Source: Convolutriloba macropyga (taxonomy: Eukaryota). Taken from it: a stretch of DNA of 64,000 nucleotides. Where the stretch lies: contig NC_134471.1 in NCBI RefSeq assembly GCF_964194025.1, positions 61,318,001 to 61,382,000 of the forward strand, given 5' to 3'. Below, piece after piece: positions 9,001 through 49,934 of the stretch. Under the pieces are notes generated by a model. The model was not told the origin of the DNA. It was given only the letters and a program-made list of their open reading frames with translations, and did no database searches. Position 1 is the first letter of the stretch. The number at the start of each line of letters is the position of its first letter. Made by a program: the position numbers and the translations under genes.

Positions 9001-12000
9001 AAAACATAAGTTATTAGGGAAAAAATTATGCAATTAAACGAAACTGTTTATTGGTACAGGCTATAAATTCAGCTCAAAATTTTGACTATTGCTCAGCTCT
9101 CGCATAAATTTTGAGACAATATACATAATAGGAAATCTGCTGTACAAACAGCAAGTTTTCATGGAGAATATTTGTTGTACAAACTGTAGATCAGCCATTT
9201 TGTTAACATCTATAGTTAAATATTAATTTGGAGCGGTTATTGAGATACGCAAAAAAAAACATAAAACATGGAGCTACTGTAGATACAGCAAACTCTGTAG
9301 GAGCAGCAATATGGTTCAAACCATAGACCAGCATTATTTTAATGATCAGTTGAGAATCTTTTGTGTAATTTGTTGAGAGGCAAATATAAATGTATGTAAA
9401 CCATCGATAGCAATTCCTTTTAGAAAACATAAGTTATTAGGTAAAAAATTATGCTATTAAACGAAACTGTTTATTGGTACGGCCTATTAATTCAGCTCGG
9501 AATTTTGGGTATTATTCAACTCTCGCATAACTTTTGAGACAATATACATAATAATTAATCTGCTGTACAAACAGTAAGTTTTCATAGAGCATATTTGTTG
9601 TGCAAACAGTAGATCAGTCATTTTGTTAACGTCTATATTTAAATATTAATTTGGAGCGGTTAATGAGATACGCAAAAAAACATAAAACACAGAGCTACTG
9701 TACAAACAGAAAACTCTGTAGGAGCTGCATCATGGTACAAGCCATAGACCAGCCAGTTATTTTAATAATCAGTTGAGAATCGTTTGTGCAATTCGTTGAG
9801 GGGCAAAAATAAATGTATGTAAACCTTCGATAGCAATTCTTTATAGAAAACAAAAGTTATAAGGTAAAAAATTGTGCAATTAAACGAAACTGGTTACTGG
9901 TACAGGCTATAAATTCAGCTCAAAATTTTGACTATTGCTCAGCTCTCGCATAACTTTTGAGACAATATACATAATACGAAATCTGCTGTACAAACAGCAA
10001 CTTTTCGTGGAGCTGCTTTGTTGTACAAACAGTCGATCAGCCATTTTGTTAACGTCTATTGTTAAATAATAATTTGGAGTGGTTAATGAAATACGCAAAA
10101 AAACATAAAATCCAGAGCCACTGTACAAACAGCAAACTCTGTAGGAGCTGCAATATGGTACAAAACAAAGACCAGCCCATTATTTTAATGATCAGTTGAG
10201 AATCCTTTGTGCAATTCGTTGAAGGGCAAATATAAATGTATCTAAACCATCGATAGCAATTCCTTATAGAAAACAACTTATTAGGTAAAAAATTTTGCAA
10301 TTAAACGAAACTGGCTACTAGTACAAGCTATTAATTCAGCTCGAAATTTTGACTATTCTTCAACTCTCGAATAACTTTGGGACAATATACATAATACGAA
10401 ATCTGCTGTACAAACAGCAACTTTTCGTGGAGCTGCTTTGTTGTACAAACAGTCGATCAGCCATTTTGTTAACGTCTACAATTAAATATTAATTTGGAGC
10501 GGTTAATGAGATACGCAAAAAAAACATAAAACCCAGTGCTACTGTACAAACAGCAAACGCTGTAGGAGCTGTAATATGGTACAAACCATAGATCAGCCAG
10601 TTATTTTAATGATCATTTGAGAATTTGTTGTACAATTCGTTGAGGGGCAAATATAAATGTATGTAAACCTTCGATAGCAATTCTTTCTAGAAAACATAAG
10701 TTATTGGGTAAAATACTATGCAATTAAACGAAACTGGTTATTGGTCAGGCTATTATTTCAGCTCGAAATTCTGAATATTGTTCAACTCTCGCATAACTTT
10801 TGAGACAATATACACAATAGAAAATCTGCTGTACAAACAGCAATTTTTCATCGAGCTGATTTATTCTACAAACAGTCGATCAGCCATTTTGTTAACGTCT
10901 ATACTTAAATATTAATTTGGAGTGGTTAAGGAGATACGCAAAAAACATAAAGCCCAGAGCTACTGTACAAACAGCAAACACTGTAGGAGCTGCAATATGG
11001 TACAAACCATAGACCAGTCAGTTATCTTAATGATCAGTTGAGGATCCTTTGTGCAATTTGTTGAGGGGCAAATATAAATGTATGTAAACCATCGATAGCA
11101 ATTGCTTTTAGAAAACATAAGTTATTAGGTAAAAATTTATGCACTTAAACAAAACTGGTTATTGGTACAGGCTATTAATTCAGCTCGAAATTTTGACTAT
11201 TGTTCAACTCTCGCATAACTTTTGAGACAATACACATAATAAAAAATCTGCTGTGCAATCAGCAATTTTTCATCGAGCTGATTTGTTGTACAAACAGTCG
11301 ATCAGCCATTTTGTTAACGTCTTTACTTAAATAATAATTTGGAGCGGTTAATGAGATACGCAAAAAAACATAAAACCCAGAGCTACTGTACAAACAGCAA
11401 ACTCTGTAGGAGCTGCAATATGGTACAAACCATAGACCAGCCAGTTATTTTAATGATTAGTTGGGAATCTTTTGTGCAATTCGTTGAGGGGCAAATATAA
11501 ATGTATGTAAACCTACAATAGCAATTCTTTTTAGAAAACATAAGTTATTAGGTGAAAAATTATGCAATTAAACGAAACTGGTTATTGGTACAGGCTATTA
11601 ATTCAGCTCGAAATGTTGACTATTGTTCAACTCTCGCAAATCTTTTGAGACAATATACATAAAAAGAAATCTGTTGTACAAACAGCAATTTTTCATCGAG
11701 CTGATTTGTTGTACAAACAGTCGATCAGCCATTTTGTTAACGTCTATACTTAAATATTAATTTGGAGCGGTTAATGAGATACGCAAAAAAAAACATAAAA
11801 CCCAGAGCTACTGTACAAACAGCAAACTCTGTAGGAGCTGTAATATGGTACAAACCATAGACCAGCCAGTTATTTTAATGATCAGTTGAGAATCTTTTGT
11901 GCAATTCGTTGAGGGGCAAATATAAATGTATGTAAACCAACGATAGCAATTCTTTTTAGAAAACATAATTTATTAGGTAAAAAATTATGCAATTAAACGA

Positions 12001-12820
12001 ATCTGCTTATTGGTACACGCTATTAATTCAGCTCAAAATTTTGACTATTGTTCAACTCTCGCATAACTTTTGAGACAATATACATAATAAGAAATCTGCA
12101 GTACAAACAGCAAGTTTTCATGGAGCATATTAGTTGTAGAAACAGTAGATCAGCCATTTTGTTAACGTCTATACTTAAAAATTAATTTGGAGTGGTCAAT
12201 GAGACATGCAAAGAAAACATAAAACACAGAGCTGCTGTACAAACAGCAAACTCGGTAAAAGCTGTAATATGGTACAAACCATAGATCAGCCAGTTATTTT
12301 AATGATCAGTTGAGAATCTTTTGTACAATTCGTTGAGGGGCAAATATAAATGTATGTAAACCTTCGATAGCAATTCTTTCTAGAAAATATAAGTTATTAG
12401 GTAAAACACTATGCAATTAAATGAAACTGGTTATTGGTACAGGCTATTGATTCAACTTGAAATTTTGACTTTTATTCAACTCTCACATAATTTTTGAGAC
12501 AATATACATAAATAAGAAATCTGCTGTACAAACAACAACTTTTCATGGAGCAGATTTGTGGTACAAACAGTAGATCAGGCTTTTTATTAACGTCTATGCT
12601 TAAATATTATTTTGGAGCGGTTAATGAGATATGCAAATTAAGAAAAAAACACAGAGCTGCTGTAGAAACAGCGAACTCTGTAGGAGCTGTAATATGATAC
12701 AAGACATAGACTAGCCAGTTATTTTAATGATCAGTTGAAAATCTTTTGTACCATTCGTTTAGGGGCAAATATAATTGTATGTAAACCTTCGATAGCAATT
12801 CTTTTTAGAAAACATAAATA
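1..12820. repeat. Satellite DNA array, ~421-424 bp monomer, ~30 copies, extends beyond window start
   Basis: Motif GGCTATTAATTCAGCTC recurs about every 420 bp (~308, ~729, ~1150 ... ~12442); monomers are clearly related but not identical; array ends abruptly near 12820. Confidence 0.97.
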
Positions 12821-12984
12821 AATGCTACTATTGTGTCCACTAACTTATATAACCCGTTGCTGTTGTTGTTGAACGTTGAAAAAAACAACAACCTCGGTAA
12901 TTTTCTTCATCATCATAAATAAATAAAAACTGCAGAAAAATTTGTGTTTCAAAGAAAAATTTTTGTTTTATTAAAGATTTCACA

Positions 12985-15604: not shown

Positions 15605-16114
15605 TGTAGTATTGCTAATTGGATAATTGCCGCCGCAATAACCGATACTACAGAGAGTTTATTTATTTAACCGTCGACTTTGTGAACACTTTAGACTTAG
15701 TCTAAACTGACGAAATATTAAGAGAGAGCTACGCTGCTTGAAATGCGTTGAGTGAATGAATACATTATTCATAGCCAAATACTGCTGTGTATTATTTAAT
15801 ACACTATTGCACAAGCAATGTCGGCTGATTCAGTGCCGCTATTGATACGCGTATTAAGTGAAGGATACTGAAGCTATCCAGGCCACTCTTCACAGCACCA
15901 AGTCTGAAACGATAATATGACTAAAGACGAATAATAGTCGGCTCCACGAATGACTTAGAAATTGATACGGAGCTAGTCATAAGTCTTGTGATTTTTAGTC
16001 GTGTTGACTCAAGTATAAAACACGCACGAGCCTAGAGCTTGCTGCTGAAGGAAATCAGTACCAAACTCAACCAGCGCAAACTTAAGCCGCTTCATTTGTC
16101 ACTAATAATTTCTC

Positions 16115-16168
<54 letters not shown>

Positions 16169-16576
16169 CCATTCTCTGCTCTAAGAGCGAAACATCTACT
16201 CCACCGCTAAGCGGGAATACCAGCGGCGATTTTAAGTCTGCCGATTTAATAGCAAAATAGAGTTAAAGTAATATTCACATCCAGCAGTAAGATGGATCTA
16301 GTTTCTTGATTAAGATTAGATACCCCACCATATTTCCAATAGGACTTACCGCAAATTTTGCTCTATCCTTCTATCTGTTTAATAATTAACCTTTACATCT
16401 AATCAATTTTATTTCTAGCAAATAACTTTTAGATTTGGAAATTAGCAAAGAACATTGTGAGCATATAGTGAGACTTATTCTAGCATTTAATTAAGGTCGC
16501 TATAATAATATTGGTTTAGCTCTAGTGTGGTAATTAAGATCGAGCGAATAAAATCCGTACCACATCAGAGTTAAAA
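15605..16576 (+). repeat. 5' LTR of Element 1 (972 bp, TG...AA)
   Basis: Aligns end to end with 33078-34019 (about 95% identity by eye); contains a (CT)n tract at ~16111-16165. Confidence 0.95.
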
Positions 16577-16578
16577 AC

Positions 16579-16588
16579 TGGTGCGTCG
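16579..16588 (+). promoter_or_regulatory. Primer binding site, tRNA-Gly-like
   Basis: TGGTGCGTCG 2 nt after the LTR; complementary to ...CGACGCACCA, the 3' end of metazoan tRNA-Gly(TCC) as recalled. Confidence 0.7.
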
Positions 16589-17359
16589 AGGAATAAAGAA
16601 CGTCGTTTGCTCACACATTTAGGGACCTGGTGGACTTTTTGTGGCTAGTTTTCCAAACCAAAAGCCCAGAGGTCACACAGGTTCTATGGTAGGGCCACAT
16701 ACCGCGCTATCCCAGTACCTGTGTGAGATGTTCTAAGATTCTGAACTTCTCAATTACGACCGAATAAAAGAGACCGGTTCTCCCCACAAAAGAACAGTCC
16801 ACTGCTTTAGTAACTTTGAGCACCAGTTCTTTGCTTCTCAGACCCGATTTTTGACACTGTAGGTTGGTTTTTTAAGCGCACACGTTAGTACATAACTGTG
16901 TATTATAAAAAAGGACGTCTTTGTATTCCCCCCGCACAAAGTTAGACAAGACCGGTCACATTAATGTTACTTTTAGACTAAATAATTGTGTTCAACTTAA
17001 CCAAATCTTTAATACTGTAAGCATAACGAACTGTACAATCCCCCTCAGTCCTATATGCGAAATCATACACCCATATTCATTAACCTAGTTCTCATATATT
17101 GTCCTTAACTTAACTTTAGCGTGTCTTAAACACATTAACTTTTAATTTATCGTCTAAATTATCAGACTTATCACTCTCCAAACCCATAGTATTGCAAAAA
17201 CAAAATGACCCACATGCAAATAAGCCTAGTTTAACGTTGTTCTGCTGCATCATACATTTATAATGTACCTATTAGTGTCTCTAAAAGTTAATAACTCACT
17301 CTGATAGCTGCAAATAACGTTGTATTGTTAAAGAAACGTCCCAGCAATAACTATTACTC

Positions 17360-18300
17360 CTCGATTTAGCCCCGAATTTCTAAAATTTCGTGGTTTTGAG
17401 TTAAACAAGGTTGGATTTATGAGATTTTTAGCCCAATTTTGCCTATTTTTTGCCTAAATTAACAAGATTTAGTGAGAATTCATCCAAAAAACAGCCAGTT
17501 ATACACAATTTTTCTCTAGAATTGAGAAAATAATTGAATTTTGGTGCCAAATTTTACTAATTCCGACCTAACCCCAGTTTTGAGAAAAAAATTGAATTTT
17601 GGTGCCAAATTTTACTAATTTCGACCTAAATAAGCCAAAATTGTCCCCCAAATTTGCCAATTTAAGCTCAGAAAGCCCCAAAATTCACAGATTCAGACCA
17701 AAATTTTTCAATTTCTACTTAAAAATTGCCCAAATTTAGGACCAGAGGGCCCAAAATTTCCAAAATTTGCCCACTTTTGACCAAAATATCTCAACTTTTA
17801 TCCAAAATTCATGCAAATTTATTGTTTTTAATCCAAAATTTGCCTAGAATTAACCAATAATTGACTATATTTAGTAAACTTGTTCCTTTTAAACACAAAA
17901 TTGAAATAATCTCAACCCAAAACTATTAGATTTGACCCAAATTATGGACATATTAGCCCAAAATTGTCAAGAAATTGTCAAAATTAGCCAAAATTTTCCC
18001 GATTTTGCCCTTTTTCATTAAAAAAACACCCGTTTTTGGTAAAATATTGTCAAAATTTGCCAAAATGTTTCAAAATTTTGCCTAAAATGATCTGGTAAAT
18101 GATCAAAATTGACCAAAATTTGTCACTTTTTGCCCAAAATTGACCCAAAATTCAGCCAGGTAATCCAAAAATTGCCCGGAACTTGTGGAAAATTACCCAA
18201 ATTGGAACACAAAAAGTGAAAAATATCTCATTTTGGAAACAAATTAGCGATACCAATCCCAAAATTGGTCTCAAAATTCCAAATAATTTCCTGAAACTCG
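17360..18300. repeat. Degenerate periodic CCAAAATT / A-tract region in the leader of Element 1
   Basis: Dozens of (G/A)CCAAAATT(T/G) variants, often ~10-11 bp apart; includes a ~58-bp direct repeat at ~17522 and ~17580. Confidence 0.75.
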
Positions 18301-18628
18301 CCGATAATCCTGAAGTATGAGTAAATATTCGAACACAGAGACAAGAAAATAGCTATTGAAGACTTTTAACGCCTGTTTTAAGTTAATATACGAATAGAAA
18401 TATAGCGTTTTGTCCAAAATTAACCACCAAAACGGCAAATTTAAAGGAAATAACACGATCTTTTCATGCAACCTTTTAAACGTTCCCGTTATTGTTATTT
18501 TGTGATATTTAAGTTTCTCTTTCGTTTTTCTGAGCCATATATTCGATTGTACTTATTAGGTTACGTATAATTTTGCATAAAGTCTTCATTTCACCAAATT
18601 AATAGCACAAAAATTGAGCAAAAAGTAT

Positions 18629-18862
18629 ATGGAATATCTAATAGGAGACAAACAAATAAGTATTAAGGATAACTCAGCAGACTGTCGAGTGCTCAAATAC
18701 GTCACCAACGTTGAACAATCATACTTGACAATAGTCTACCGCATTAAAAGAACAAAAACTGTCGGACAGGTAATCATATTTAAAATAGAAACTACATCAT
18801 TAGATGTTTTGTTCAATAGACTTAATAAACGTGGCTCAATCATTGATTTACAAAGTATGTAG
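18629..18862 (+). CDS. Element 1 upstream accessory ORF u1 (77 aa, unknown function)
   Basis: ATG-initiated ORF; segment ISIKDNSADCRVLKY..QSYLTIVYRI aligns by eye with u3 and u4. Confidence 0.6.
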   Translation: MEYLIGDKQISIKDNSADCRVLKYVTNVEQSYLTIVYRIKRTKTVGQVIIFKIETTSLDVLFNRLNKRGSIIDLQSM

Positions 18863-18885
18863 ACTCAACCACAAGTTTCCAATAA

Positions 18886-19211
18886 ATGAGTGAAAGCAAC
18901 CAAAACCTGAAATTAGTACCCTTACCAGATAATAAGCTCTATATATTTGAAAAAGTTTCCATCTCTTCAACCACATTACCTAAATTTATTAGAGAAAAAA
19001 TCCAAAAAGAAAACGTTTATTGTGTCCTAATAAAAAAATCTGATAGCAATAATCAAATCATTTCCTATAGAGTCAGAGTATTTAGACCAATTTTAACAAC
19101 AGCATTCTCTGAAAGCAAAAATCAAAGTTCTGTCAAGCAGGAAAATTTTTCTGGTTAGAATATCGACTAACCGAAAAAGATTGCTATCAACGATTAAATA
19201 AATGTCTATAA
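18886..19211 (+). CDS. Element 1 upstream accessory ORF u2 (90 aa, probably longer before a frameshift)
   Basis: ORF 18886-19158; another frame continues FWLEYRLTEKDCYQRLNKCL* to 19211; VLIKKSDSNNQIISYRV resembles u4 ITITLSHNTGKVTSYKV. Confidence 0.55.
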
Positions 19212-19298
19212 TTAGTTAATCTCAAATATTTTTGTATAAAACAAAGTGAAAAACAAAACAAAAATTCTTTTCTCTTTTATTGTCTTCTAACTTAGCTT

Positions 19299-19522
19299 AT
19301 GAATATTAGTACAAAGCACCTAAATGTAACCATTTTGGACGACGATAAAGTTGCGAAAGTTAAAAAGTACACACTAAATAACGATAAACAATCTCTGATT
19401 TTTTATTACAAGGTTGTTAATGATCCGCGCCTACACTGTTTTGTAACATATGCAAGTTGTAATCCTGTTTTTTCTAAAAATTGAAAGCTTTGCACACGCC
19501 CAATAGTTATATTGGACTCTAG
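19299..19522 (+). pseudogene. Element 1 upstream accessory ORF u3 (frameshifted paralog of u4)
   Basis: LNVTIL..KVKKY..PRLHCFVTYASCNPVFSK then frameshift to LKALHTPNSYIGL*, versus u4 LNITIT..KVTSY..PGLACYITHAKNNPNFIKILNALCTPNSVFEI. Confidence 0.7.
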
Positions 19523-19598
19523 ATCACTAAATTTTTAATTAATTTGTAACTAATACTGTCTAAAATTAAACCTTTTTTAAAAACAAAAGTTGAACTTA

Positions 19599-19835
19599 AT
19601 GAGTAATGACGCTACCTCCTTGAACATTACTATCACACTTAGTCATAATACAGGCAAAGTTACTAGTTATAAAGTACATAAGAAAAAACAATATATGTAC
19701 ATTTTCATTAATTTTGATAACGTTCCAGGACTAGCTTGCTATATAACCCATGCAAAAAACAACCCTAATTTTATCAAAATTTTAAACGCTCTTTGCACTC
19801 CAAATAGTGTTTTTGAAATAAGACCATTTGTTTAA
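19599..19835 (+). CDS. Element 1 upstream accessory ORF u4 (78 aa, unknown function)
   Basis: Intact ATG-initiated ORF, clear paralog of u3. Confidence 0.7.
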   Translation: MSNDATSLNITITLSHNTGKVTSYKVHKKKQYMYIFINFDNVPGLACYITHAKNNPNFIKILNALCTPNSVFEIRPFV

Positions 19836-19985
19836 ACAAATTGTCTAAATTTTTCTTAAATTTCATATTAGACTCTGATCTTTTCTTAGCTTCAATTTCT
19901 TTTGAATGTACTTTTGAGTTGTTTCCTTTCGTTTACCTTCTCATATAAAAACTTAATAATCATTAAACAAAAACCTTAAATAAAA

Positions 19986-21252
19986 ATGGTGAACATTGTA
20001 GCATACCCAGACATTTCTCTTGAAAAATTTACAGGCTTAGACCCAAGTGAGGACGTAGCAGATTTTCTAAGTTTAATAGAACGAAAAAGCGAATTGTCTT
20101 TTGGAGTTAGACCAGTATTAGGAGACGCTCGAAATGATTATGACGCACGTAGAAAAGAATTATTTGGCTCAGTCCTAAGAGGGCCAGCAGCCCAATGTTC
20201 GATTCTGTACCCGCAGCGGAACCATGGGATGATGTTAGAACAGGTTTCTTAAATAGATTCACAGACGAGAAAGACAAGTACAGAAAACGAATTGAGGTAG
20301 AAAACATTCGCAGACAACCAGACCAAAGAGCAGTGGAAAAAGGATGGCCAGACCCATTGACAGATGCTCAAAGGCAAACTAAGTGTATGGAATTCTTTGT
20401 AAGAGGACTAACTCCTCCATCACTTAAACAAAAAGCGCATCAATTTCTGATAGAAACACCTCACGCAACATGGGAACAACTTAGAAATCATGTTAGCACT
20501 AAGGATTTAAGATTTGCAGTAAGTAGAGATTTCACAGGCACAGCTTCGAGCAGTATAGATAACAAAATAGAGATAGATGGTATAAAAGATCAGCTCCAAT
20601 AACTAGCAAGTCTAATATGAGAAAAATAACAGAATTATTGCAGCCTACAACCCAAATGAGCCTAGAAACAAACAAAATCACACACAATTTTGTAAATTTT
20701 GCTGAAAGTCAGGTCACACAATAGCATATTGCTATGCAAACAAAGACTTTAAAGAACAAAACAGACAGCAATCACAGCAAAGAGATAAGTGCAGAGATAA
20801 CTATCAAAGCTATAGAGGACGTCGTCCAAGAGAAGATAGTTATGATAGGAATCAGAACAGATACAGACAAGACTACAGACCAAGAAACAGTTACAGTTAC
20901 TACAACCAAAACAACCGCATACAATACTCTCTTTATCCTAGAACTGAGAACAATAACTTCAGAAATCGCTCACAAAGCTTTGAGAATCGAGATCGCCGCT
21001 ATAGTTGCAGATCCAAAAATTGCAGACCCCAGGACTATAGAAACTATTCACGGGAACAACAATATGATCGAAACGATTCTCGGACAAGGTATCGTGAGTC
21101 ACACAGTCCAAGACAGGATTATAGAAGAAGTAACAGTTCCAATCAGAAGGCTAGAGATAACAGTAGAGAACGTAACTCAAACAGAGTTCAATTCAGAGAG
21201 AATAAAGTTGATGGGTTCATTGTGGACAATCAACAAGATGAAATTAATTTAA
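19986..21252 (+). pseudogene. gag: Element 1 gag (frameshifts and stops)
   Basis: EKFTGLDPSEDVADFL..LRGPAAQ/FDSV..WDDVRTGFLNRFTD capsid-like segments; zinc knuckle CKFC*KSGHTIAYC at ~20691-20733; R/S/Y/N-rich basic tail. Confidence 0.88.
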
Positions 21253-24200
21253 GCTAGACAAGTCTCCGTACAAATATAAAAAGACAAACATTTTTATTAT
21301 CTTGTACATTCACGCCATCGGAGACAGTAATAAACATAACGGTTTCGAATCGCAGTTTCTAGTTGACACAGGATCAACCTGTTCCTTAATTAATTTTGAT
21401 TTTCTACAGGAAATTAAGTCACTGATTGATGTTAAACTAATTAAGTCTAGACAGAAAACAATTGCAGTCAACGGCGAAAGATTAAAATTGTTGGGCTACA
21501 TTCATGTCCCCATCTCATTTGACATTGAAGGCAAATATTACACAGATCTTAAAACATGGGTTTAGGAGAAAAACGGTTGCGAATTAAACAAAATTGGGAT
21601 GGATGTTTTGAATTGTGCCACAAAATCAATTGAGTTCACAACTCCATAAATGAACTTGAAAATTTAACCAAACGTCTCAATCAGGCTCTCAAAATATCAA
21701 ACAAAAACCTTTCCTTTTGTAAGTAAATTTGAATAAGTAGTGCTAAACAGACCTTTCGAGCTAGCACCAAAATCTAATAGAGATCTATCAATTCCACCAT
21801 CAAACCAATTTTTCAAACAAGGGACATCTTTCAAAATTGACAAACGCCTTCAAGACAAAGGTATCTACACATACAAAGTCTATTGCGTAAGAAAAGAAAA
21901 AGAATTACCAATAATGTTTAATAACCCCTGTGGTTGTAAAGTAACAATAGATAAAGGTTCAATAGGATACACTTTGGAAGAAATTTGTCAAAAAACACAA
22001 AAATACACACTGATTGATAATGTTGCGTTCTTAGATGTCTTAACAGAAACTGAAACAGATTTCAATCACATGTTTCATGTAACTGAAAAAGTTGAAAACC
22101 CAGTTCAGATTTTAGAAAATCCGAAAATAGACAAAACAGATATTAGACAAAAGTTGAAAAAAGCTCAGAAAAAGATTCAAGAAAAAGAATTTGCAGACCA
22201 CCATGAATTAGAAACAGATTTTAGTCAATATCTAAAAGACTTAAAACCCAAAGAAACAATAGATGGTGAAAATCAACCACAACAAATACCACTAGAAAAA
22301 CTGGAATTGTTTAGTATATCAGACCTTGAGTTTCGCAAAAAATTTGACTTCAGTCAATCAGATATTAACGAGGCACAATTACTAGATCTAATGAAACTAC
22401 TTGCCAGAGACAAGGACGTCTATTCTCAACACAAGTTTGACGTTGGAAAAATAAAGCAAAAATTTCACGTAAAACTTCTACCAAATTCAACCTTGACTAA
22501 GCAAAGACCATCGCGAGTACATTTGCACCATCAGAAAAAACTTGAAATTTTGATAGAACAGATCTGCAAAGCTGGAATCATTCGAGAAATGGGAGACGAC
22601 ACCGAAATGGGATCGTCATTTATTAATCCAGTAATCATCCTAACTAAAAAACATAGTGAAACTAGTAATCGACGCCAGATATCAAAATTCAATAAAAGAC
22701 CTGAGTAAATACTTATGGCCTCTAGAGCCAATAGGTTCTTTATTGACTAGATTGAACGGAAATAACTTCACTACAAGTGATTTATGCTCGGCATATAATC
22801 AAGTTCCTCTAAAGGAGGAAACACAACAACTGACAAGTTTTGTAATAGGTTCAGAACAATACACGTTTCAACATGGTTTTTACGGACTTTGCGGACTACC
22901 AAACTTTTTCAGTAGGATAATGACAATCCATTTTGCACCCTTAATAAAATCAAGACAAGCCGTAACTTACATTGACGACACAATCATGCAAGCTCAGACA
23001 GCTGAAGAAATGTACTCAATAATAAAAAAGTATCATCTTTTGCTACGCAAAGCAGGACTTAAAGCTCAGCCTGAGAAAACAAAATTCATTTGCGCAAAGT
23101 ACAATTCTTAGGACATGTAGTAGGGAAAGACGGCACTCAACAAATAAAGAAAAGGATTGAAGATCTGAAAGCCTTAAAAAACCTGAGAATAAGCGAGATG
23201 TAATTGCGAGTCCTAGGTTGTTTAGAATTTTACAGCATGTACATAAAAAATCTGCACACAGAGAGTAAGCTATTTTAAGATCTCATAAAAACTGAAACCA
23301 CATTTCAATGGACAGATGAACACGAAAAGTTGTTCACAGAAACTAAGGATCGTATAAGTGAAGATACAGTCCTAGCAATTCCAGACCCAAGATACCCTTT
23401 CCATGTTCATGTAGGTGCATCATCAATTGGTGTTGGTTCAGTTTTAGTCCAGGAATTTCCTGCCGGAAAACGGATAGTTTCATTTAATTCTTGCGTTTAC
23501 ACAAAAAATGAGCAAAAAATGAGTACAACAGCTAGAGAACTTTGTGGTGTAATTTCTGCTCTACAAACGTATGAGCATTACATAATAGGTTCCCCAGATC
23601 CACTGTATCTCTACACAGACCAAAAACCCCTACTGTATCTTTGGGGACGTAGAGGAAAATCATCTCATCGATTTTTCTGCTATCAACTTGTCATTTCACA
23701 ATTCCAAAACTTGAAAATAATCTGGACAGAAGGCAAAAACCTAGCCTTTCCAGGCATTCTAAGTAGACTTAGACAAATATCAACTGAAACACAAAAGAAT
23801 TCCGAAAGAGATTAAATTGTACGTCGAGTCAGGCAACGAAGAAAAATACTTCGTGTTGCATGACATTGAAAAAGGACAGAAAAACGATTGCTACCCCACT
23901 CTAAAACAAACTTTTCAAGGAGTTAAAAAATTGAATTTTGAGAAGGAACAGTTTTTTCAGACAGCCTATGAACCTAGTGATCGAATTTGTTCAAATTCCG
24001 ACATCTAAGAATCTTTTTTGAAAGGAAATGCAATAAACCATTATCGTGACAAATGCCCATTAAAAAAACCAATTTGAAGCGAACCAGACGACAGTGAAAA
24101 CTACTACTCTGATTTGTCTTTAGAATTTGATGATAATTTAGAAAAAGAAAAAGAACAATTTGAAAAAGTTTCTACAACAGAAAACAACTCTTTGCTAAAT

Positions 24201-26328
24201 TCAGTTGAAGTTTCAGATATAGAAATAGATGACATGAGTCTTGAGCAAGAGGTTGAAGCAAGCAAAACAACTTTTTATAGAATAGCAAGTGTTCGACTAG
24301 CAAAACAAATTTGCGAGAATAACGAAATCCCAGATGGAAAAGAACTCATTGAGAAATTATCTAGTTTTGCTAAAGATATTGACTTGAACATAGCAGCAAT
24401 CAGCCAGGAACAATTCAAAGACCCAGTTATCCAGACTAATAGACAACTTTTTGAGTCAGGAAACAAAGACGAGAAAAACATAAAGTTTCGACAATCAAAA
24501 GCTATAAAAGCATACTTGAATAATTTCGAAAAATCTTTGCCTAATTGGAAACATTTTGTGTTTTAAACAACCAACTGAAGAACCAAATATTCATAACATC
24601 AAGATATGCGCACCGTTATCCCTCTTCTCAAATATTTTTGAATTAGCTCACCAAGATTCACTTTCCGGACACTCTGGGAAAGACAAAACATTGTCAAGCA
24701 GAAAACGCTTTTTCTATTGGCCAGGTTTATACAAATGGGTTTCTCACTTGATAGCCAATTGTCTAGACTGTCAAAAAAAACGCAAAGACTTAAACGAAGC
24801 ACCATTTGAAAAATGGACAGAAACTGTACCTTTCCCCTACCACACGGCACATATAGATCACAAAGGTCCAACAAATCCACCCTCGAACTGAAATAAACAT
24901 TGCCTAGTAGTAATTGATTCCTTTTCATGTTACATTCAAGTTTATTCAGTTTCATCAACATCAGCAAGTGAAACAATATCAGCACTTGAGAAATTTTTTT
25001 TTACTTTCGTTACCCCACAAAAACTTGTGTATGATAAAGGATCAGCCTTTATGAACGCAGAGTTCACAAGTTGGACTCATGAACTTGGAATTACGCATGC
25101 TCCAAGAACAGCATAATCTCCCTGGACCAACGGAAAAGTTGAGATCCAAAACGAACACCTTGGCACAAAATTCCGAATCTTTTTTGAACAAGCCAATCGT
25201 AATTGGAGTGACTTAGCACCAAAGTTTGCGTTTGCTCATAACACAACAGCAAACACTAGTACAGGATTAACACCCTACGAAATTGTTTTTTGGCCAAAAG
25301 CCCCAAATTCTGCTTTCTCTGAAATTAGGATTATCAAGTTCTTCCGACTTAACTTGTAATTCAGAATATTGCAAAGATTCACCACACCACAAACATTCAG
25401 AACAGAGTAACAAGAACGGTCAGATAGATAAACTGCTAAAGCCGAAATTAAGTAGTTCTTTACTTGCTCATGAAAATCAATTCAAACAAATTTACAAAAC
25501 TGCATACAACAGAAGCCTTGAGGTTAACTCCACAGCACATCAAAACAGAAACAAACATAAACTAGGTAAGCCTTCAGACGTAGGACAGCTAGTTTTAATG
25601 GAAATTCATTCATTCGAGGATGGAAAATCTAGAAAGTTACATGAACTAGACCATATGAAGTAACAAAAAAATTGACAAATGTAAATTACGAAATAGAACT
25701 TGTTGCAAACAAAACCGTCAAGAAAGTTGCTCATAGAAACCATCTAATTGAGTACTTCCCAATCGAAAACGCAATTTCAGAATTAATTGTGGATTATGGC
25801 TTAAGGAATGAAAGGTTCCGACCATTTTACAAAAATTTAATGAATAAACAAATTGAAAAACTTAATAAGCTAGTTGATAAATTTTCTTTTCAACAACCCT
25901 TCACTGAAACTGAATTTTTCCCAGTAGACAATTTTACAAGTAATACAGATAATACACAAAATAAAAATCAACATGAGAAAACTCTTAAAGACAACAATAC
26001 CACAATAACAAAACCAGACTCAGGATTTCAGGAAGGTTTTTCAACTACATATGTAGATAACACACAAACACCTGATAGCCGTAGTCGTAGTGGAACTAGA
26101 AGTTCTACCCCATATCCCGAGACACGTATTCGTTTTGCACATCCACCTGACATTAGAGTCAGCCCTGTTAGAACCCAACCCCGTGTACAATCACCCGAAG
26201 CAAACCCAACTCCTTCGGATGATCAACGTTCATCTCGAATAGATCGTCGAATTTCGGGACGATTAAAAAACATACTACTCGCTGTCAAGCGGGATTTACT
26301 TAAACCATACTTTATATTTTTACTTTAA
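21253..26328 (+). pseudogene. pol: Element 1 pol (protease, RT, RNase H, integrase), disrupted
   Basis: Protease FLVDTGSTCSLIN; RT KLVIDARY..SDLCSAYNQVPL..FYGLCGLP..YIDD; RNase H FHVHVGASSIGVG..RELCG..YTDQKPL; integrase H-H-C-C (AHQDSLSGH..CLDCQ), HIDHKGP, YDKGSAF, NGKVEIQN; GPY-like PYEVTKK at ~25650. Confidence 0.95.
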
Positions 26329-26447: not shown

Positions 26448-29029
26448 GTGAAGAACAATAACTTCCTTTGTAAATCTTTAACTATTTTGATTGTTTTTAT
26501 TGTTGTATCTTTTTGTAGACCCTGAGTTAGGAATAAGTTGGATGACATTTCCCCTACATTAAAAGTTGTTCATTATGACTGTTCAAAAAAGAAAGAAAGC
26601 AAAATGTATGCTTTAAATCAAGTAGCTCAAGGCAACATTAAACCAGAAAATATTAAAGTTGCACCCGCAATGGTGACACTTTACCAAAGTTCATACAGAA
26701 CAAAAGTAGAGACCATAATGTGTCGAGTAAAATCGCAAGCCTTAAGATGGCACTGTGGCTTTTTATCACACTCTTCCTTAGCATGCAACCAAAATTCTCT
26801 TACAACTGACTTAATAGTAACACCAGAGAATTGCAGACTTGCTAACAAAACAGGACAAATTGCAATAAGAGAGTACGATAGAACTTATAAATTAGATATT
26901 TCAAATGAAGTTTTAAAACACCAATACACACACGGTGGTCTGAATGAGGACGACCACCTAGAAGATAACACAGATTGCTCCTCGTCAGGAGAAATAAAAC
27001 TTTTTTCCTTTGAAACACAAATGCAAAGAGTTGAACTTGAAGTTGATCAGGAAACTGACTTACAACTCTTACAACTGACTTAATAGTAACACCAGAGAAT
27101 TGCAGACTTGCTATCAAAACAGGACAAATTGCAATAACAGAGTACGATAGAACTTATAAATTAGATATTTCAAATGAAGTTTTAAAACACCAATACACAC
27201 ACGGTGGTCTGAATGAGGACGACCACCTAGAAGATAACACAGATTGCTCCTCGTCAGGAGAAATAAAACTTTTTTCCTTTGAAACACAAATGCAAAGAGT
27301 TGAACTTGAAGTTGATCAGGAAACAAAATCAGTTTCCACCCCGTTAGGATTAAAATTTTCATGCGAACTTAAGGAAGGAGGTTGTGAAACAACATCACTA
27401 GACCCCTTCGCTTACTCATTGTTACAAAACTTTTCACTCAAAACGCAAAAATGATAAAGTTCACAAACGAACCAGATCCACCCTAATACAACATCATAAG
27501 TACGCACGACATGCAAAATGATGTTTATCGTTTGCAAAACAACATGAAAATAGACCACACGCAAGACATAGAACTTAGGATAAATAATGAAAGAAATTAT
27601 ATTTGTGGAAAGCCTAATCCTTTGTTTATTACAAACTTTGATGATTTTTTTGTTTCTTTTACAGGCCGATTTGATATGAATACGGGAAAAACAGTAATTT
27701 CAAAAAATAATGTTAATTATTACAAAATGCAAGCCGGCACCGACAACAGAATAAGGGTGAACGGTTTTACGAGACACCTAAAAACGAACTAGTTCGTAGC
27801 CAACATTTTGGAAACCATAGACAAATTTTGGAAAACGTTGGAAAAGACACTATCAATTATGATGCTCATATGCGTATGAAAATTAATTTCATGATGTATA
27901 AGGTCTATCGTGATTTGGAACAGTCTGACTTCCTTATTTTACAAAATATGTGCGAGCTCAGACGCACTCAAATCCAAATGATCAATGCATTGTCTTACGA
28001 AAACAATAGATTGGCCGGATACATGTTAACCGGAAATCGTTCAATGTTCTTAGAAATTGAGGGTGTTATAGATTTTCAATATCCGTGTCCAAAGAAAATT
28101 TCACCGCTTAAAATACTTGATCGCTGTTACGACCGTATTCCAATCTTTTATGACGGAAAAACTATGTTTGTTAATCCTATTACGCGCCAAACAGTTCAAT
28201 TTGCAAATGAAATAGACTGTACAGATACTTTCAAAAATTTGTTTCAACTTGATTTAGATAATAATAATTCTTGGTATCAGTTGATGCCGGCGCCAGTTTC
28301 TTTTAAACCGCCAGCTGTTTTTGCTCCACAACAAATTAGTCATATTCAAAAAATCCCAGATTATGATTCTCGTCGTGCAGGTATTTACACTGTAATTCAA
28401 TTGAAAGATCTTTTGAGAACAATTTTGCCCAAATCTGCATCTAATTCAGTCTTGAAAAAGATTTCTCGAACAGTTCTTCAAAACGCACACATAGACAATA
28501 GTCAGCGCGATATCTATCGCGCCGCAAGCCTCAATAATCGATTATATTTACATTCAATGTTGTCACCATCTTTTTTCCTTGATCACTTTAAGAGTACTTT
28601 TGGAGAAATTGGCTATTACGTAGAAAGAGCCGGAATTTTGTTTGCATCTTTCATGTTAATCATTTTTTGATCGATGTTGTAATTTTTATTCTAAGAGCTT
28701 TCGAGATACAAAAACTGTCGAAAAACACTATTGATTTTTGGAAAACATTACTAGGAGCCTCGTACAATTTGTTTCTACTTTCCATTGTAACATCAATTTA
28801 TCAAACACCTAAGGATGATGAAAACTCTGATAACCATACAAACAATGAACCAAATAGAAATCGGTGCCTCAAGCATACACCAGATAATAACATCTATCAC
28901 GACAACAGTCAAATAGAATTGTCACCACTCAATGCCCTTGAAGTAGCATCACCTCCTATGCCAGAATTACCACATCTTTACCTTAAAGTTCCTACTGAGC
29001 AAGAAGTAAATGCAATTGCTCCCACATAA
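26448..29029 (+). pseudogene. env: Element 1 envelope glycoprotein, chuvirus/herpes gB-like (class III fusogen-like), disrupted
   Basis: In-frame signal peptide (V)KNNNFLCKSLTILIVFIVVSFCRP* from 26448; VHYDCS, WHCGFLSHSS, MCELRRTQI, CYDRIPIFY..TMFVNPITRQ..DC and AGIYT motifs as recalled for chuvirus-like glycoproteins; C-terminal TM (GILFASFMLIIF/IDVVIFIL) and cytoplasmic tail. Confidence 0.8.
26797..27324 (+). repeat. 259-bp tandem duplication with 10-bp filler inside env of Element 1
   Basis: 26797-27055 repeated at 27066-27324 (period 269 bp), nearly identical; shifts the reading frame. Confidence 0.95.
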
Positions 29030-29112: not shown

Positions 29113-30434
29113 ATGATCTGAGATTCAAAACTTTAATGATCTTTTCGTATTTGAGTACCATAAAGTTTTATTTATTAAGTTTCACGAATTTTATGGACAT
29201 ATATATATATATTACTCTTTTATACCTGTTTATGAAAACTTAGTGCATTTAAAAGTTAGCGCACCCAAATTTTCTGACTTAGTAGATATACTAATTTATT
29301 CAAACAACAAAAAAAATTTATACTCTTAAGGAATTTTTACTTGATTGTGAATACGGTTTACTCGATTTAGGGAGCAACATCCACTTTCTTTTATAAAATG
29401 ATGCACCTCGATCTTCAAAAGTACCTGCGGGAACTGATTATCTTATTTGCTATTTTATACGTTTTAACTATATTTGCCTTATTTCTTAAACATTTCAGAG
29501 AACCAAACGTATCCACAGTACATTGCAAACACTTCGAGATCCATCAGCACGAGAATAACGTTTTGGAATGTACTTTTACTACAAAGGCAGTTTAGTAAGA
29601 ACTTATCAAATTAATCGATCTTTTACTATCCATTTTCCCTATCAAGTAACCCGCACCTTAGAAGTTTTGTTTGATTTTGTTGACTCTTGGGACGAAGGTT
29701 CGATAACAATAGCAGCTTTTTCTCCCTATTGGAACTTTTTTTTGATGCTTTCAGAGCAAAATTTAGACCAGATTCCCATTGATATTTCCAACTGGTGATG
29801 ATAAACATACAAAACAGATCCCTTACCCTTAAATTGAATAACACAAAATATATTATTCTTTGATTATCCACCACCCATAACTCCTTCATAATTTACATTC
29901 GACAACCCCATAGCATTTTAAACCACTATCTAAATTTCAAAATTAACCACCCCCAAATACTTGAAATTGCCTGTTCCTACCTTTTTATTCTAACCGCGAA
30001 CTAACAATTAAATACCCTATTCTTTTATTTTGATAATGTTTTTCTTATTAAGAAAAGAATTAGTTGAAATTGGTAGTTTCGAAAAAACATTCGAAACAGA
30101 ACCTTCCCTCCAAGCTTTCATTTTAGTACACTTGAGGAAAGTCGAATCCCAAGAACAATCAACCCTCTCAGTATACCCCTCTTCTTGTTATTGGAACTAT
30201 TCTTTTTATTTACTCGAAAATACGCCAAATGTGCCAAAAACATCTGCACAGAAAATAATAAATTATTATAAAATGATATTCCATTTAAACCAACATCTGG
30301 TCAGAATAACTGACATTAAACGTTCCTTCGTAGAAACAGGTAATTACACCTCCCCTTCCCTAGACATTTACTATATAAATATTGACACCCAAGAAAAAAT
30401 AATTAAAACACTTACTCCTCTATCACCCCACTAG
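29113..30434 (+). pseudogene. Degenerate accessory coding region downstream of env (one or more ORFs, unknown function)
   Basis: Successive + strand open segments (29118-29330, 29568-29798, 30030-30434), aromatic-rich; preceded by CTAACCTAACTGTTTCAG, a branch point plus acceptor-like sequence ending at 29108. Confidence 0.45.
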
Positions 30435-30542
30435 AACTTTTTTTAAAAAAATTGAAACATCCTTCCATTTAAAATTAAGTGAAATAAATCCCCCCAGCCA
30501 ACATCGACAACGAAACAATTTATCCTACCCGCGACTTTTAAA

Positions 30543-30979
30543 ATGGGAAACTGTTTATCCTTCAGAATAGTTTTTCCCCTTCAGAACTCATCACGCCCCC
30601 TTTTTGTCGAATATCGTGATGAATGTCCCATTTGTTAAAGAATTGCTTCCTGTTGGAAAAAATTGCGCCCTTCCGACGTAGACCCACCACCCCCATTTAG
30701 TTTGCACCGATTGCAGAATTAACCTATTCCGACACTCTTCCAACCCAAATTGCCCTCTTTTGCCTCCGCCACATTTATACATTATCCCTTAGTTTTTATT
30801 ACCAATGTTTCTGGTGCAATCAAGTAAAGAAGTGTGTAAGTTCCTCCACTCATCCGCACATAAAATGTCACGAGGACTTTGGACATTTTTTGTGTAATCC
30901 CTGTGCCCAGGAGAAAAATAATTGCCCCATCTGTTTAAAAAAAATCAACCCCCACGACGTATGGTCGGAGAGTTTTTAA
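30543..30979 (+). pseudogene. Myristoylation-motif RING-finger protein (~145 aa reconstructed; one stop, one frameshift); absent from the ORF track
   Basis: AAAATGG start, MGNCLSFRIVFPLQNSSRPLFVEYRDECPIC*RIASCWKKLRPSDVDPPPPF; second frame open 30701-30976: FAPIAELTYSDTLPTQIALFCLRHIYTLSLSFYYQCFWCNQVKKCVSSSTHPHIKCHEDFGHFLCNPCAQEKNNCPICLKKINPHDVWSESF*, i.e. C-x2-C-x16-C-x5-H-x2-C-x2-C-x6-C-x2-C. Confidence 0.75.
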
Positions 30980-30982
30980 ACA

Positions 30983-31043
30983 ATGCACCCCGTTCACGTC
31001 CCAATCCTTATCCTTTTCTCGTTCTTCATCACCCTATCTGTTG
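30983..31043 (+). CDS. Start of a possible small secreted or membrane ORF, cut by the assembly gap
   Basis: ATG 3 nt after the RING ORF stop; MHPVHVPILILFSFFITLSV is hydrophobic and signal-like. Confidence 0.3.
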
Positions 31044-31712
31044 NNNNNNNNNNNNNNNNNNNNNNNNNNNNNNNNNNNNNNNNNNNNNNNNNNNNNNNNN
31101 NNNNNNNNNNNNNNNNNNNNNNNNNNNNNNNNNNNNNNNNNNNNNNNNNNNNNNNNNNNNNNNNNNNNNNNNNNNNNNNNNNNNNNNNNNNNNNNNNNNN
31201 NNNNNNNNNNNNNNNNNNNNNNNNNNNNNNNNNNNNNNNNNNNNNNNNNNNNNNNNNNNNNNNNNNNACAAGCAGGTATACACTGCAACACAAAAAAACC
31301 AGCTGCGCGGGTCGTCGCACGGAGGGGAACCACGAGGTCCGAAACCCGATTTTAGTCAGTTAAATCTGACACAATTTGATTCAAAGCTCCTAAACAAATA
31401 AATTTTTGGTTAATAGGATTTTCCGATTTTAAAAACGGAGATTCTTTTCCAATTTTCAGTTCTTTTGAATTTTTTTTTCTTTCTTTCCAACCCGGTAGGA
31501 GTTTTGCAAAATTGATTCTGCACATAATGTGTGATTGTATTCCGGTACTCTAAGAATATGATTTTGATGGTACTTTAAAAAGTACGATTGTTTTCTTTTC
31601 AGCACAGCTAGATTTCGTTTTAACCTTTCTTTGTAAGTGTGTTTTTTTTATGTTTGACAAGATGTCGAAAGATCCTAGCAGAACACAACCCGCACACTGC
31701 TAGAGAAGCAGT

Positions 31713-31796
31713 ATGACCAACTGGATGGCAGATCTCCCACCATTAACAAAGAAACATAGAGCGATCCACCCGCGTCAACGTGGCCACTTCAACAAG

Positions 31797-31843
<47 letters not shown>

Positions 31844-32615
31844 TCAACCACACCAACACCAAAGACAACCAAACGCAAGTTATTCCCAGCCACTTCCCAA
31901 AAAACTTACCAAAAGTACTATTGATGATGGACTTCCAAAGGGACGTGACTTTCCAGAGAAACCACAGCGCCTAGAGGAACAATTTGGTCGAGAGCAGTTC
32001 CCCTTGAACGACAATCCACTATTTGTCAAGTCGCTTGACTACTCCCTCAGGCCAGAACACAACAAGTGTTGCCTCTCTGAACAGTCCATCATTCAGAGTA
32101 AGGTCACAGGCGAGAAAATCGCGGTCCCCTCGTCTGTGCTTCCTGTGATACCAGACTTCTCTCTGGTCCGATCGCTGAACTTGAGGAGACTCAGAAACCG
32201 TGATGTGAGTCAAAGGAAATATGAGATAGAGAATAAAGAATTGCACAGTCGCATCAGCGTTCCCTTTGAGATGATTACGGCTTTTCCTCCACAAGATGAT
32301 CCGGTAGAAACGATCTGTTCAGATCAGCTTCTAATGGAAAACCATGAGTTCAGACGACAGCTCTGGACCTCAGAATCCTCTGTTAGTGAGCTCCAAGTTA
32401 AGCTGGATCGTCTCACAATAAATGCAAATGAAGAGAAGGAGCGGTACCGAAAGCAAAACATCCAGTCCAGTCAAATGCTCAAAATTCGGGATAACCAACA
32501 AAAGGAGCTGATAAAGAAAACTGAGGCCCTAATTGAATCAAATAAGCAGATGGCCTCAGAACGTAAGAGACTGGGCCAGGAGAACAAAGAACTAATAAAA
32601 CATTCTGCCCTCTAA
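31713..32615 (+). CDS. 300-aa protein with Q/H repeat and C-terminal coiled coil, inside Element 1
   Basis: Uninterrupted ORF; (QQQH)n repeat; heptad region LLMENHEFRRQL..VSELQVKLDRL..LGQENKELIK; acceptor-like TTTTCTTTTCAG at ~31591-31602 upstream and AATAAA at ~32765 downstream. Confidence 0.7.
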
Positions 32616-33077: not shown

Positions 33078-34019
33078 TGTAGTATTACTAATTGGATAAT
33101 TGCCGCCGCAATTACCGGTACTACAGGGAGTATAATTATTTAACCGTCAACTTTGTGAACACTTTAGACTTAGTCTAAACTGACGGAATATTAAGAGAGA
33201 GCTATGCTGCGTGAAATGCGTTGAGTGAATGAATACATTATTCATAGCCAAATACTGCTGTGTATTATTTAATAAACTATTGCACAAGCTATGCCGGCTG
33301 ATTCACTGCCGCTATTGATACGCGTATTAAGTAAAGTATACTGAAGCTATCCAGGCCGCTCGTCACAGCAGCAAGTCTGAAACGATAATATGACTAAAGA
33401 CGAATATTAGTCGGCTCCACGAATGACTTAGGAAATGATTCGGAGCTAGTCATAAGTCTTGTGATTTTTAGTCGAGTTGACTCAAGTATAAACACGCACG
33501 AGCCTAGAGCTTGCTGCTGAAGGAAATGAGTACCAAACTCAACCAGCGCAAACTTAAGCCGCTTCATTTGTCACTAATAATTTCTCTCTCTCTCTCTCTC
33601 TCTCTCTTCCTCTCTCTGCTCTAAGAGCAAAACATCTACTCCTCCGCTAAGCGGGAATGCCAGAAGCGATTGTAAGTCTGCCGATTTAATAGCAAAATAG
33701 AGTTAAAGTAATATTCACATCCAGCAGTAAGATGGATCTAATTTCTTGATTAAGATTAGATACCCCACCATATTTTCAAGTAGGATTTACCCCCAAATTT
33801 TGCTCTATCCTTTCTATCTGTTTAATAATTAACCTTTATATCTAATCAATTTTAATTTTAGCAAATAACACTTAGATTTGGATATTAGCAAAGAACATTG
33901 TGAGCATATAATGAGACTTATTCTAACACTTAAATAAGGTCGCTATAATAATATTGGTTTAGCTCTAGTGTGGTAATTAAGATCGAGCGAATAAAATCCC
34001 TACCACATCAGAGTTAAAA
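33078..34019 (+). repeat. 3' LTR of Element 1 (942 bp)
   Basis: Direct repeat of 15605-16576 with a shorter (CT)n tract; followed by TSD CCGT. Confidence 0.95.
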
Positions 34020-49913: not shown

Positions 49914-49914
49914 T

Positions 49915-49934
49915 TGGCGACCACAGAGGGATTC
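49915..49934 (+). promoter_or_regulatory. Primer binding site, tRNA-Arg-like
   Basis: TGGCGACCACAGAGGGATTC, 1 nt after the LTR; near-complement of the tRNA-Arg(TCG) 3' end ..CCCTTCGTGGTCGCCA as recalled. Confidence 0.8.

What the first reader, a model, noticed from the sequence alone, without database searches (positions are those of the whole stretch)
18629..19835. Cassette of four small divergent paralogous ORFs upstream of gag
Seen: four ~75-105-codon same-strand ORFs with short spacers. u3 and u4 align throughout (PRLHCFVTYASCNPVF / PGLACYITHAKNNPNF; LKALHTPNS / LNALCTPNS). u1 and u2 share the weaker pattern hydrophobic-x-I-x6-(R/K/Q)-(V/I)-x-(K/S)-Y followed by a hydrophobic strand, and u1/u2 share RLNK near the end. 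Protein similarity persisting despite DNA divergence suggests selection. Genes upstream of gag are rare in Gypsy elements and raise a translation problem for gag. Inference: an expanded family of small host-interaction proteins, such as silencing suppressors.
Basis: partly seen in the sequence, partly recalled or inferred. Interest (0 to 1): 0.78.

Follow-up and report, generated by a model that had tools for sequence, protein, structure and literature searches.

The report
Duplicated mini-genes ahead of retroelement gag
A large retrovirus-like jumping gene in an animal genome carries four small extra genes in front of its capsid gene; three of them look like old duplicates of a small protein not matched to any known family, which suggests these elements evolve accessory gene families as complex viruses do.

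Summary
The cassette is real but holds at most three detectable paralogues, not four. It lies between the primer-binding site and gag of an 18.4-kb Ty3/Gypsy element with a Monjiviricetes-type env. Relatives of all four ORFs occur on many other contigs with strong modal lengths (86, 107-109, 74, 78 aa), and 23 contigs carry two or three of them. In this decayed copy only u4 is intact. u3 and u4 are clear paralogues (HH probability 99%, rough dN/dS 0.14). u1 joins them weakly, through a fifth member (u5) found on other contigs. u2 is not detectably related, and its RLNK lies in a frameshifted tail. The family folds confidently (u5 model, pLDDT 93) into a 78-residue beta-meander plus helix with no clear match in Pfam, PDB, BFVD or ESM Atlas. 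The proteins are soluble, basic and lack invariant catalytic residues, so they are probably binding modules. Silencing suppression is untested. Small ORFs upstream of gag are known (MDG1 group, Burro, WDSV orf C); a paralogous array there was not found in my searches. How gag is translated stays open: 29 ATGs precede it.

The parts
15605..16576 (+). 5' LTR
   Evidence: 91.5% identical to 33078-34019 over 975 columns; CCGT on both outer flanks, a likely 4-bp target-site duplication (the LTR end is ambiguous by 1-2 nt)
16579..16590 (+). primer-binding site, tRNA-Gly-like
   Evidence: 10 of 12 bases complementary to a tRNA-Gly 3' end listed in PMC13524379 supplementary file 1
17400..18300 (.). 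non-coding leader with A-tracts phased at about 10.4 nt
   Evidence: autocorrelation peaks at 21, 31 and 41-42 nt; 21-nt tandem units
18629..18889 (+). u1: distant member of the u3/u4/u5 family; premature stop after codon 77 in this copy; the frame of the 86-aa relatives ends in a stop that overlaps the u2 start (ATGA)
   Evidence: 42 clusters, 28 of them 86 aa; tblastn of P0064 maps to 18629-18886; link to u5
18886..19211 (+). u2: conserved small gene, not detectably related to the others; frameshifted in this copy near 19116-19146
   Evidence: 18 clusters; the four largest (29, 13, 7, 6 members) are 109 aa; tblastn in two frames; no significant profile match
19299..19522 (+). u3: paralogue of u4; frameshifted in this copy near 19470-19480
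   Evidence: 19 clusters, 5 of them 74 aa, one with 45 members; HH probability 98.7-98.9% to u4
19599..19835 (+). u4: intact 78-aa member of the family
   Evidence: 12 of 18 non-self hits are exactly 78 aa at 72-85% identity
19986..21257 (+). gag, broken by stops and frameshifts, with a CCHC-like knuckle
   Evidence: ORF fragments; position between cassette and protease; no Pfam hit; knuckle motif recalled and read
21248..26328 (+). pol (PR-RT-RH-IN order), broken
   Evidence: Pfam protease (sub-threshold), RVT_1, RT_RNaseH, Integrase_H2C2, rve, Integrase_p58_C
26526..29029 (+). env, Monjiviricetes_fusion type, broken, with a 269-bp tandem duplication
   Evidence: PF24664 E 1.4e-12 and 2.1e-22; duplication at 26797-27324
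29117..32615 (+). further accessory ORFs 3' of env: d1, d2 (hydrophobic stretch), the related pair d3/d4, a RING-like ORF and a 303-codon Q-rich ORF; an N gap lies at 31044-31267
   Evidence: ORF list; d3/d4 p 0.001, z 5.4; RING Pfam hits below cut-off, E 0.027-0.089
33078..34019 (+). 3' LTR

Best explanation
The four ORFs are accessory genes of an env-bearing Ty3/Gypsy (errantivirus-like) element and are inherited with it as a cassette (shown). u3 and u4, and more distantly u1, arose by duplication of one 75-86-aa domain and diverged under purifying selection (u3/u4 shown, u1 moderately supported); u2 is a separate gene or has diverged beyond detection. The proteins are soluble, basic, single-domain beta-meander/helix modules whose core is conserved while their surfaces differ (fold predicted). 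I infer that they are non-enzymatic binders that act inside the host cell, each paralogue engaging a different host factor or variant of one, to let the element be expressed and spread against host restriction. u2 is probably made by stop-start reinitiation after u1, and u3, u4 and gag from shorter transcripts (inferred, weak). Confidence: real selected accessory cassette about 0.93; u1 a true paralogue about 0.8; host-antagonist binder function about 0.4.
For: Position inside the LTRs between PBS and gag. Modal lengths in relatives. u3/u4: codon-position identities 34, 34, 26 of 58; dN 0.55, dS 3.79. Substitutions shared between copies are more often conservative than private ones (36 of 84 vs 82 of 276, p 0.033). 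Model of u5 from 51 sequences: pLDDT 93.4, pTM 0.82. Near-invariant columns are I, V, Y, I, S, with no invariant catalytic-type residue. No transmembrane stretch or Gly2; pI 8.8-9.4. The same element carries a RING-like ORF and a second related pair. Accessory proteins of complex retroviruses bind host factors (PMC3185748 passages).
Against: No target, expression or interaction data exist here. No family or fold match gives a function. The u1 link is modest: HH probability only 23-35%, one shuffle scored 40.8 against the observed 40.9, and direct u1-u3 and u1-u4 profile tests are not significant. dS is saturated and the second method failed. The conservative share of shared changes (43%) is little above the neutral count (34-39%). 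Basic pI is expected in AT-rich genes. The confident model is of u5, not of a window protein; the u4-only model was poor (pLDDT 56). The acceptor-site test for subgenomic transcripts was not significant.
Confidence: 0.45

Rival explanations
1. The family binds nucleic acid (element RNA or DNA) and regulates export, translation or packaging of the long genomic RNA, working like a KTSC/Pur/PC4-type beta-sheet protein.
For: All five groups are net basic. KTSC 7x8c_A ranks first for the good model (Z 4.1, rmsd 2.9, 56 aligned) and third for the poor one (Z 4.4); AP2, KOW, SSB and Pur rows also appear. The element has an unusual translation problem that such regulators could solve. That KTSC binds single-stranded nucleic acid is recalled; the search gave no paper on it.
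Against: Z about 4 is background level, tied with unrelated rows; 0 of 48161 chains reach Z 5. No Pfam KTSC hit among 51 members. Gag has its own CCHC-like knuckle.
Confidence: 0.25
2. The proteins are virion components, a split matrix-like layer linking the capsid to the membrane or Env tail.
For: They lie where matrix lies in retroviruses, are small and basic, and the element has env.
Against: No Gly2 or hydrophobic anchor; no viral matrix protein among the listed fold rows; many env-bearing Gypsy elements are described with three ORFs only (PMC13524379).
Confidence: 0.13
3. They are RNA-silencing suppressors in the strict sense, binding small RNAs or Argonaute/Piwi.
For: Small, basic, diversified; such elements are piRNA targets in insects (PMC13524379 passage).
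Against: 0 of 67 modal-length sequences have GW/WG; no listed fold row is a known suppressor; evolution looks purifying, and positive selection could not be tested.
Confidence: 0.12
4. u2 is also a paralogue, with a 40-residue N-terminal extension, so the reader's four-member family is right. (A side question, independent of function.)
For: By eye its last 65 residues repeat the four-strand-plus-helix pattern and the I-x8-(V/I)-x2-Y spacing. Relaxed local tests give z 2.1-2.5 (8-12 of 300 shuffles).
Against: HH probability below 0.5% against every group and the merged profile; most shuffle tests are at chance; the weak signals come from many tests.
Confidence: 0.3
5. The ORFs are chance frames in non-coding tandem duplications of AT-rich leader DNA.
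For: Three of four are broken in this copy; the spacers share a short motif.
Against: 0 of 2000 shuffles; modal lengths; rough dN/dS 0.14; confident fold. gag, pol and env of this copy are broken too and the LTRs differ by 8.5%.
Confidence: 0.03

Closest known systems
MDG1-group Gypsy elements (412, Mdg1, Stalker, Blood) with sORF1 and sORF2 (PMC11952523, passages)
   Same: Small (70-110 aa) same-strand accessory ORFs upstream of gag in a Ty3/Gypsy element, under purifying selection.
   Different: MDG1 elements lack env, carry two unrelated helical proteins, one a FAST-like membrane fusogen, on unspliced RNA. Here env is present, there are four ORFs, three related, predicted beta-rich and with no transmembrane stretch.
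Env-carrying Ty3/Gypsy errantiviruses of metazoans, HSV/gB or chuvirus-like type (PMC13524379, sections and supplement file 1)
   Same: LTR-gag-pol-env order, PR-RT-RH-IN pol, tRNA PBS, Monjiviricetes-type glycoprotein.
   Different: That survey annotates three ORFs; its main text has no occurrence of 'accessory' or 'upstream of'. This element is 18.4 kb with about ten extra ORFs on both sides.
Giant LTR elements Burro and Ogre (PMC6431247, passages)
   Same: Large Gypsy elements with extra ORFs; a Burro-like element has one upstream accessory ORF and ubiquitin-related domains.
   Different: Their extras are one or two ORFs or recognisable host domains in a polyprotein, not an array of small unannotated paralogues.
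Complex retroviruses such as WDSV (orf C 5' of gag; orf a and b 3' of env) (PMC3185748, passages)
   Same: Accessory genes on both sides of gag-pol-env; host-binding functions; orf C poses the same translation question.
   Different: Vertebrate retrovirus, one upstream gene, no sequence relation found. That orf a and b are duplicates is recalled, not seen in the passages.
KTSC domain (7x8c)
   Same: Similar size and beta-meander plus helix order; best structural row.
   Different: Z 4.1, 11% identity, no profile match; not evidence of kinship.

Membership tests
Ty3/Gypsy LTR retrotransposon | Two LTRs, PBS, target-site duplication | tested here: met
   no clear polypurine tract before the 3' LTR
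Ty3/Gypsy LTR retrotransposon | pol order PR-RT-RH-IN | tested here: met
   (protease hit below cut-off, in the expected place)
Ty3/Gypsy LTR retrotransposon | RT phylogeny inside Ty3/Gypsy | not tested
Errantivirus-like element (Chary and Hayashi) | env ORF after pol | tested here: met
   PF24664 above cut-off
Errantivirus-like element (Chary and Hayashi) | Env of HSV/gB type (five domains, cysteine bridges) | tested here: inconclusive
   Pfam family is consistent with it; no solved relative by sequence; env is broken and was not folded
Errantivirus-like element (Chary and Hayashi) | RNase H bridge type (mini or pseudo domain) and pol clade | not tested
MDG1 sORF2/FAST-like fusogen | Single transmembrane helix, polybasic tail, often myristoyl-Gly2 | tested here: not met
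   maximum 19-residue hydropathy 1.22, Gly2 in 0 of 67; beta-rich model
MDG1 sORF1 | Helix-turn-helix-like fold | tested here: not met
   u5 model has six strands and one helix; u2 was not folded
KTSC domain | Sequence profile match | tested here: inconclusive
   not listed for any of 51 members at E 1
KTSC domain | Fold match above background | tested here: inconclusive
   Z 4.1, rmsd 2.9, 56 aligned, tied with unrelated rows
Viral suppressor of RNA silencing | GW/WG Argonaute hook (one class only; motif recalled) | tested here: not met
   0 of 67
Viral suppressor of RNA silencing | Relief of silencing or small-RNA binding | not testable with these tools
   needs bench assay
u3/u4/u5 family (defined here) | u1: significant profile match | tested here: met
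   moderately:
u3/u4/u5 family (defined here) | u2: significant profile match | tested here: not met
   a fold comparison was not possible

The most novel reading that the evidence does not exclude
An invertebrate lineage of complex endogenous retroviruses with about ten accessory genes, in which a small domain of previously undescribed fold has been amplified in tandem ahead of gag (all four ORFs related) as a set of counter-defence proteins against piRNA or other restriction, expressed from a polycistronic leader by stop-start reinitiation and splicing or trans-splicing.
Probability: 0.2. Interest if true: 0.85.

Novelty: new variant of a known kind. Interest (0 to 1): 0.62.

Why it matters
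Gypsy elements are usually treated as gag-pol(-env) with at most one or two captured extras. This one has accessory genes on both sides, including two separate duplicated families, an organisation closer to complex retroviruses and large viruses. The upstream family gives small, intact, natural proteins with a confidently predicted and unmatched fold, which can be expressed and pulled down. That makes a long-open question testable: whether animal retrotransposons encode dedicated antagonists of host restriction. It also offers a natural case of a gag gene lying behind 29 upstream ATGs.

Tried and rejected
Four-way paralogy: u2 failed pairwise, HH and shuffle tests; one search timed out after 10 of 32 planned tests. 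My guess that d1 (3' of env) belongs to the family failed (z 0.8 or less; p 0.055). Leaky scanning: ATG is no rarer in the cassette (observed/expected 0.69) than in background (0.77-0.79). Splice-acceptor model: in 16577-20000 four of the six most pyrimidine-rich AG sites of 159 lie before u1, u3 or gag, but over the element's accessory regions 1 of 5 strong vs 22 of 165 weaker YAG sites precede a long ORF (p 0.52); the pre-u1 site is GAG. No TGGGA reinitiation motif (recalled from caliciviruses) before the u1/u2 overlap. Function by homology: no Pfam family above cut-off, no PDB sequence hit below E 0.027, no Atlas hit for u4 or u2, no phage hit, no Foldseek hit at E 0.001 in PDB or BFVD, no VIA Z of 5 or more among 48161 chains; absence does not prove a new fold. 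Rfam gave only chance microRNA rows and no tRNA was found. The host taxon was not determined; acoel names are absent from the errantivirus table.

Full report
Context. The ORFs lie inside one LTR element. The LTRs are at 15605-16576 and 33078-34019, 91.5% identical, with CCGT on both outer flanks. A primer-binding site at 16579 matches 10 of 12 bases of a tRNA-Gly end listed in the supplement of PMC13524379. Pfam gives protease (below cut-off), RT, RNase H and integrase in Ty3/Gypsy order, and a Monjiviricetes_fusion env (E 2e-22). gag, pol and env are all broken, so this is a decayed copy of an 18.4-kb env-bearing element. The host is an AT-rich animal by inference from the element type; its taxon was not determined.

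Observation. Four ATG ORFs of 77, 90, 61 and 78 aa precede gag; 0 of 2000 shuffles give four ORFs of 60 aa or more. Relatives show why. For u4, 12 of 18 non-self hits are exactly 78 aa. For u2, 8 of 17 are 107-109 aa, including the four largest clusters. Sorting all 128 proteins fetched gave 42 u1 clusters (28 of 86 aa), 19 u3 clusters (5 of 74 aa, one with 45 members), 25 u4, 18 u2 and 24 of a fifth group, u5 (13 of 78 aa). So in this copy u1 has a premature stop, u2 and u3 are frameshifted, and u4 is intact. All hits are unnamed and from one source type; they look like copies from one or a few related genomes, and the scan of 1.84 billion representatives with the u4 profile found only 9 proteins, all in these groups.

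Cassette. The 22 contigs with u5 carry none of u1-u4, so u5 probably belongs to a sister element. Order and distance on those contigs were not seen, and only one representative per cluster is listed. A few longer hits read on into sequence matching the window's spacers.

Paralogy. u3, u4 and u5 are firmly homologous (HH probability 96-99%, E 7e-9 to 3e-17). u5 was found from the u4 profile alone (E 1.7e-4), so its match to u1 is an independent test: E 4e-4 to 9e-4 over 67 columns, probability 23-35%, 0 of 60 shuffles (z 7.5), 0 of 300 (z 6.5, best shuffle 40.8 vs 40.9), tblastn E 0.004 over 75 residues. Direct u1-u3 and u1-u4 profile tests are not significant; the single-sequence u1-u3 p of 0.005 is one of 35 tests. 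The alignment is nearly gapless, with I, V, Y, I and S columns at 90% or more. In the tree u3 and u4 are sisters and u1 is on a long branch (bootstrap not settled, 51 of 110 family proteins used). u2 matches nothing: probability under 0.5%, best z 2.5 among 24 comparisons, z up to 2.2 in targeted tests. Its RLNK reads RINK or RMNK in relatives.

Selection. Over 58 gapless codons u3 and u4 share 34, 34 and 26 bases at the three positions, with dN 0.55 and dS 3.79 (NG86; saturated; LWL85 failed). Among modal-length sequences, shared substitutions are conservative in 36 of 84 cases and private ones in 82 of 276 (p 0.033); u3 and u5 alone show no such trend, and the neutral count is 34-39%. The paralogue-level evidence is the stronger part.

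Structure. u4 with 19 close sequences gave a poor model (pLDDT 56). u5 with 51 sequences from four groups gave pLDDT 93.4, pTM 0.82, six strands and one helix before the last strand. Foldseek found nothing at E 0.001 in PDB or BFVD; VIA found no chain at Z 5 among 48161, best KTSC 7x8c_A at Z 4.1, rmsd 2.9, 56 aligned. Pfam, PDB sequence, Atlas and phage searches were blank. Among 67 modal-length sequences none has a transmembrane stretch, Gly2 or GW/WG, and pI medians are 8.8-9.4. They are therefore not sORF2/FAST-like fusogens.

How it probably works. Shown: a co-inherited, selected set of small genes. Predicted: one compact soluble fold for u3, u4, u5 and probably u1. Inferred: conserved core, divergent surface and no catalytic residue point to binding modules; duplication and divergence, together with a RING-like ORF and a second related pair (d3/d4, p 0.001 and z 5.4) behind env, fit host-antagonist adaptors best (about 0.4), ahead of element-RNA regulators (0.25), matrix-like virion proteins (0.13) and strict silencing suppressors (0.12).

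Translation. 15 ATGs lie between the LTR and u1 and 14 more before gag, without special depletion; u1-u4 starts have a pyrimidine at -3 whereas gag has A at -3 and G at +4. Simple scanning from the LTR is unlikely. The frame of 86-aa u1 ends in a stop overlapping the u2 start, and 28 of 28 u1 ends and 18 of 18 u2 second residues are compatible with that overlap, which suggests stop-start coupling; no TGGGA motif was found. Acceptor-like AG sites lie before u1, u3 (3 nt before its ATG) and gag, but the enrichment test failed. Shorter transcripts are my best guess (about 0.5), unproven. MDG1 elements translate upstream sORFs and Gag without detected splicing, so an unspliced route is possible.

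Prior art. Seen: PMC13524379 (abstract, sections 7 and 14 whole, first parts of 5 and 6, term passages, part 1 and one search of supplement file 1; the other six files were not read and may list related elements); PMC11952523, PMC6431247, PMC3185748 and PMC8278194 (passages; the last not relevant); PMC5408684 (abstract). Small ORFs upstream of gag are known: two in MDG1 elements, one in a Burro-like element, orf C in WDSV. Ten searches showed no report of a paralogous array upstream of gag in a Gypsy element; the library omits most subscription papers and Repbase.

Verdict. Real, selected accessory cassette; three related genes plus one unrelated; new protein family with an unmatched predicted fold; function inferred only. 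New variant of a known kind, interest 0.62.

Noticed in passing
window 29117-32615: At least six further ORFs between env and the 3' LTR: d1, d2 with a hydrophobic stretch, the related pair d3/d4, a broken RING-like ORF with two CPIC motifs, and an open 303-codon Q-rich ORF. An N gap at 31044-31267 interrupts the region.
   Followed up: partly
P0045 family (not in window): A fifth paralogue, u5, 24 clusters on 22 contigs that never carry u1-u4; three entries share one contig length (77217).
   Followed up: partly
window 19203, 19557, 19842: TGTCTA occurs three times in 16577-20000, once at the end of the u2 frame and once in each of the next two spacers; similar pyrimidine tracts precede u1 and gag. 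Post hoc; may be a signal or a duplication remnant.
   Followed up: no
window 17400-18300: Leader with A-tracts phased at about 10.4 nt, possibly curved or nucleosome-positioning DNA.
   Followed up: partly
window 33050-33077: No clear polypurine tract before the 3' LTR; the LTR ends in AGTTAAAA rather than CA.
   Followed up: no
window 26797-27324: 269-bp tandem duplication (99% identical) inside env; recent event or assembly artefact.
   Followed up: no
window 48309-59118: Second, younger Gypsy element (LTRs 98% identical) with a third ORF that looks like an F-type env by eye (basic cleavage-like site and hydrophobic peptide; no Pfam env hit).
   Followed up: partly
window 1-12940: Satellite array of about 31 copies of a 423-bp unit; no Rfam match.
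   Followed up: partly
window 34409-34876 and 43669-44055: Nested inverted repeats, MITE-like.
   Followed up: no
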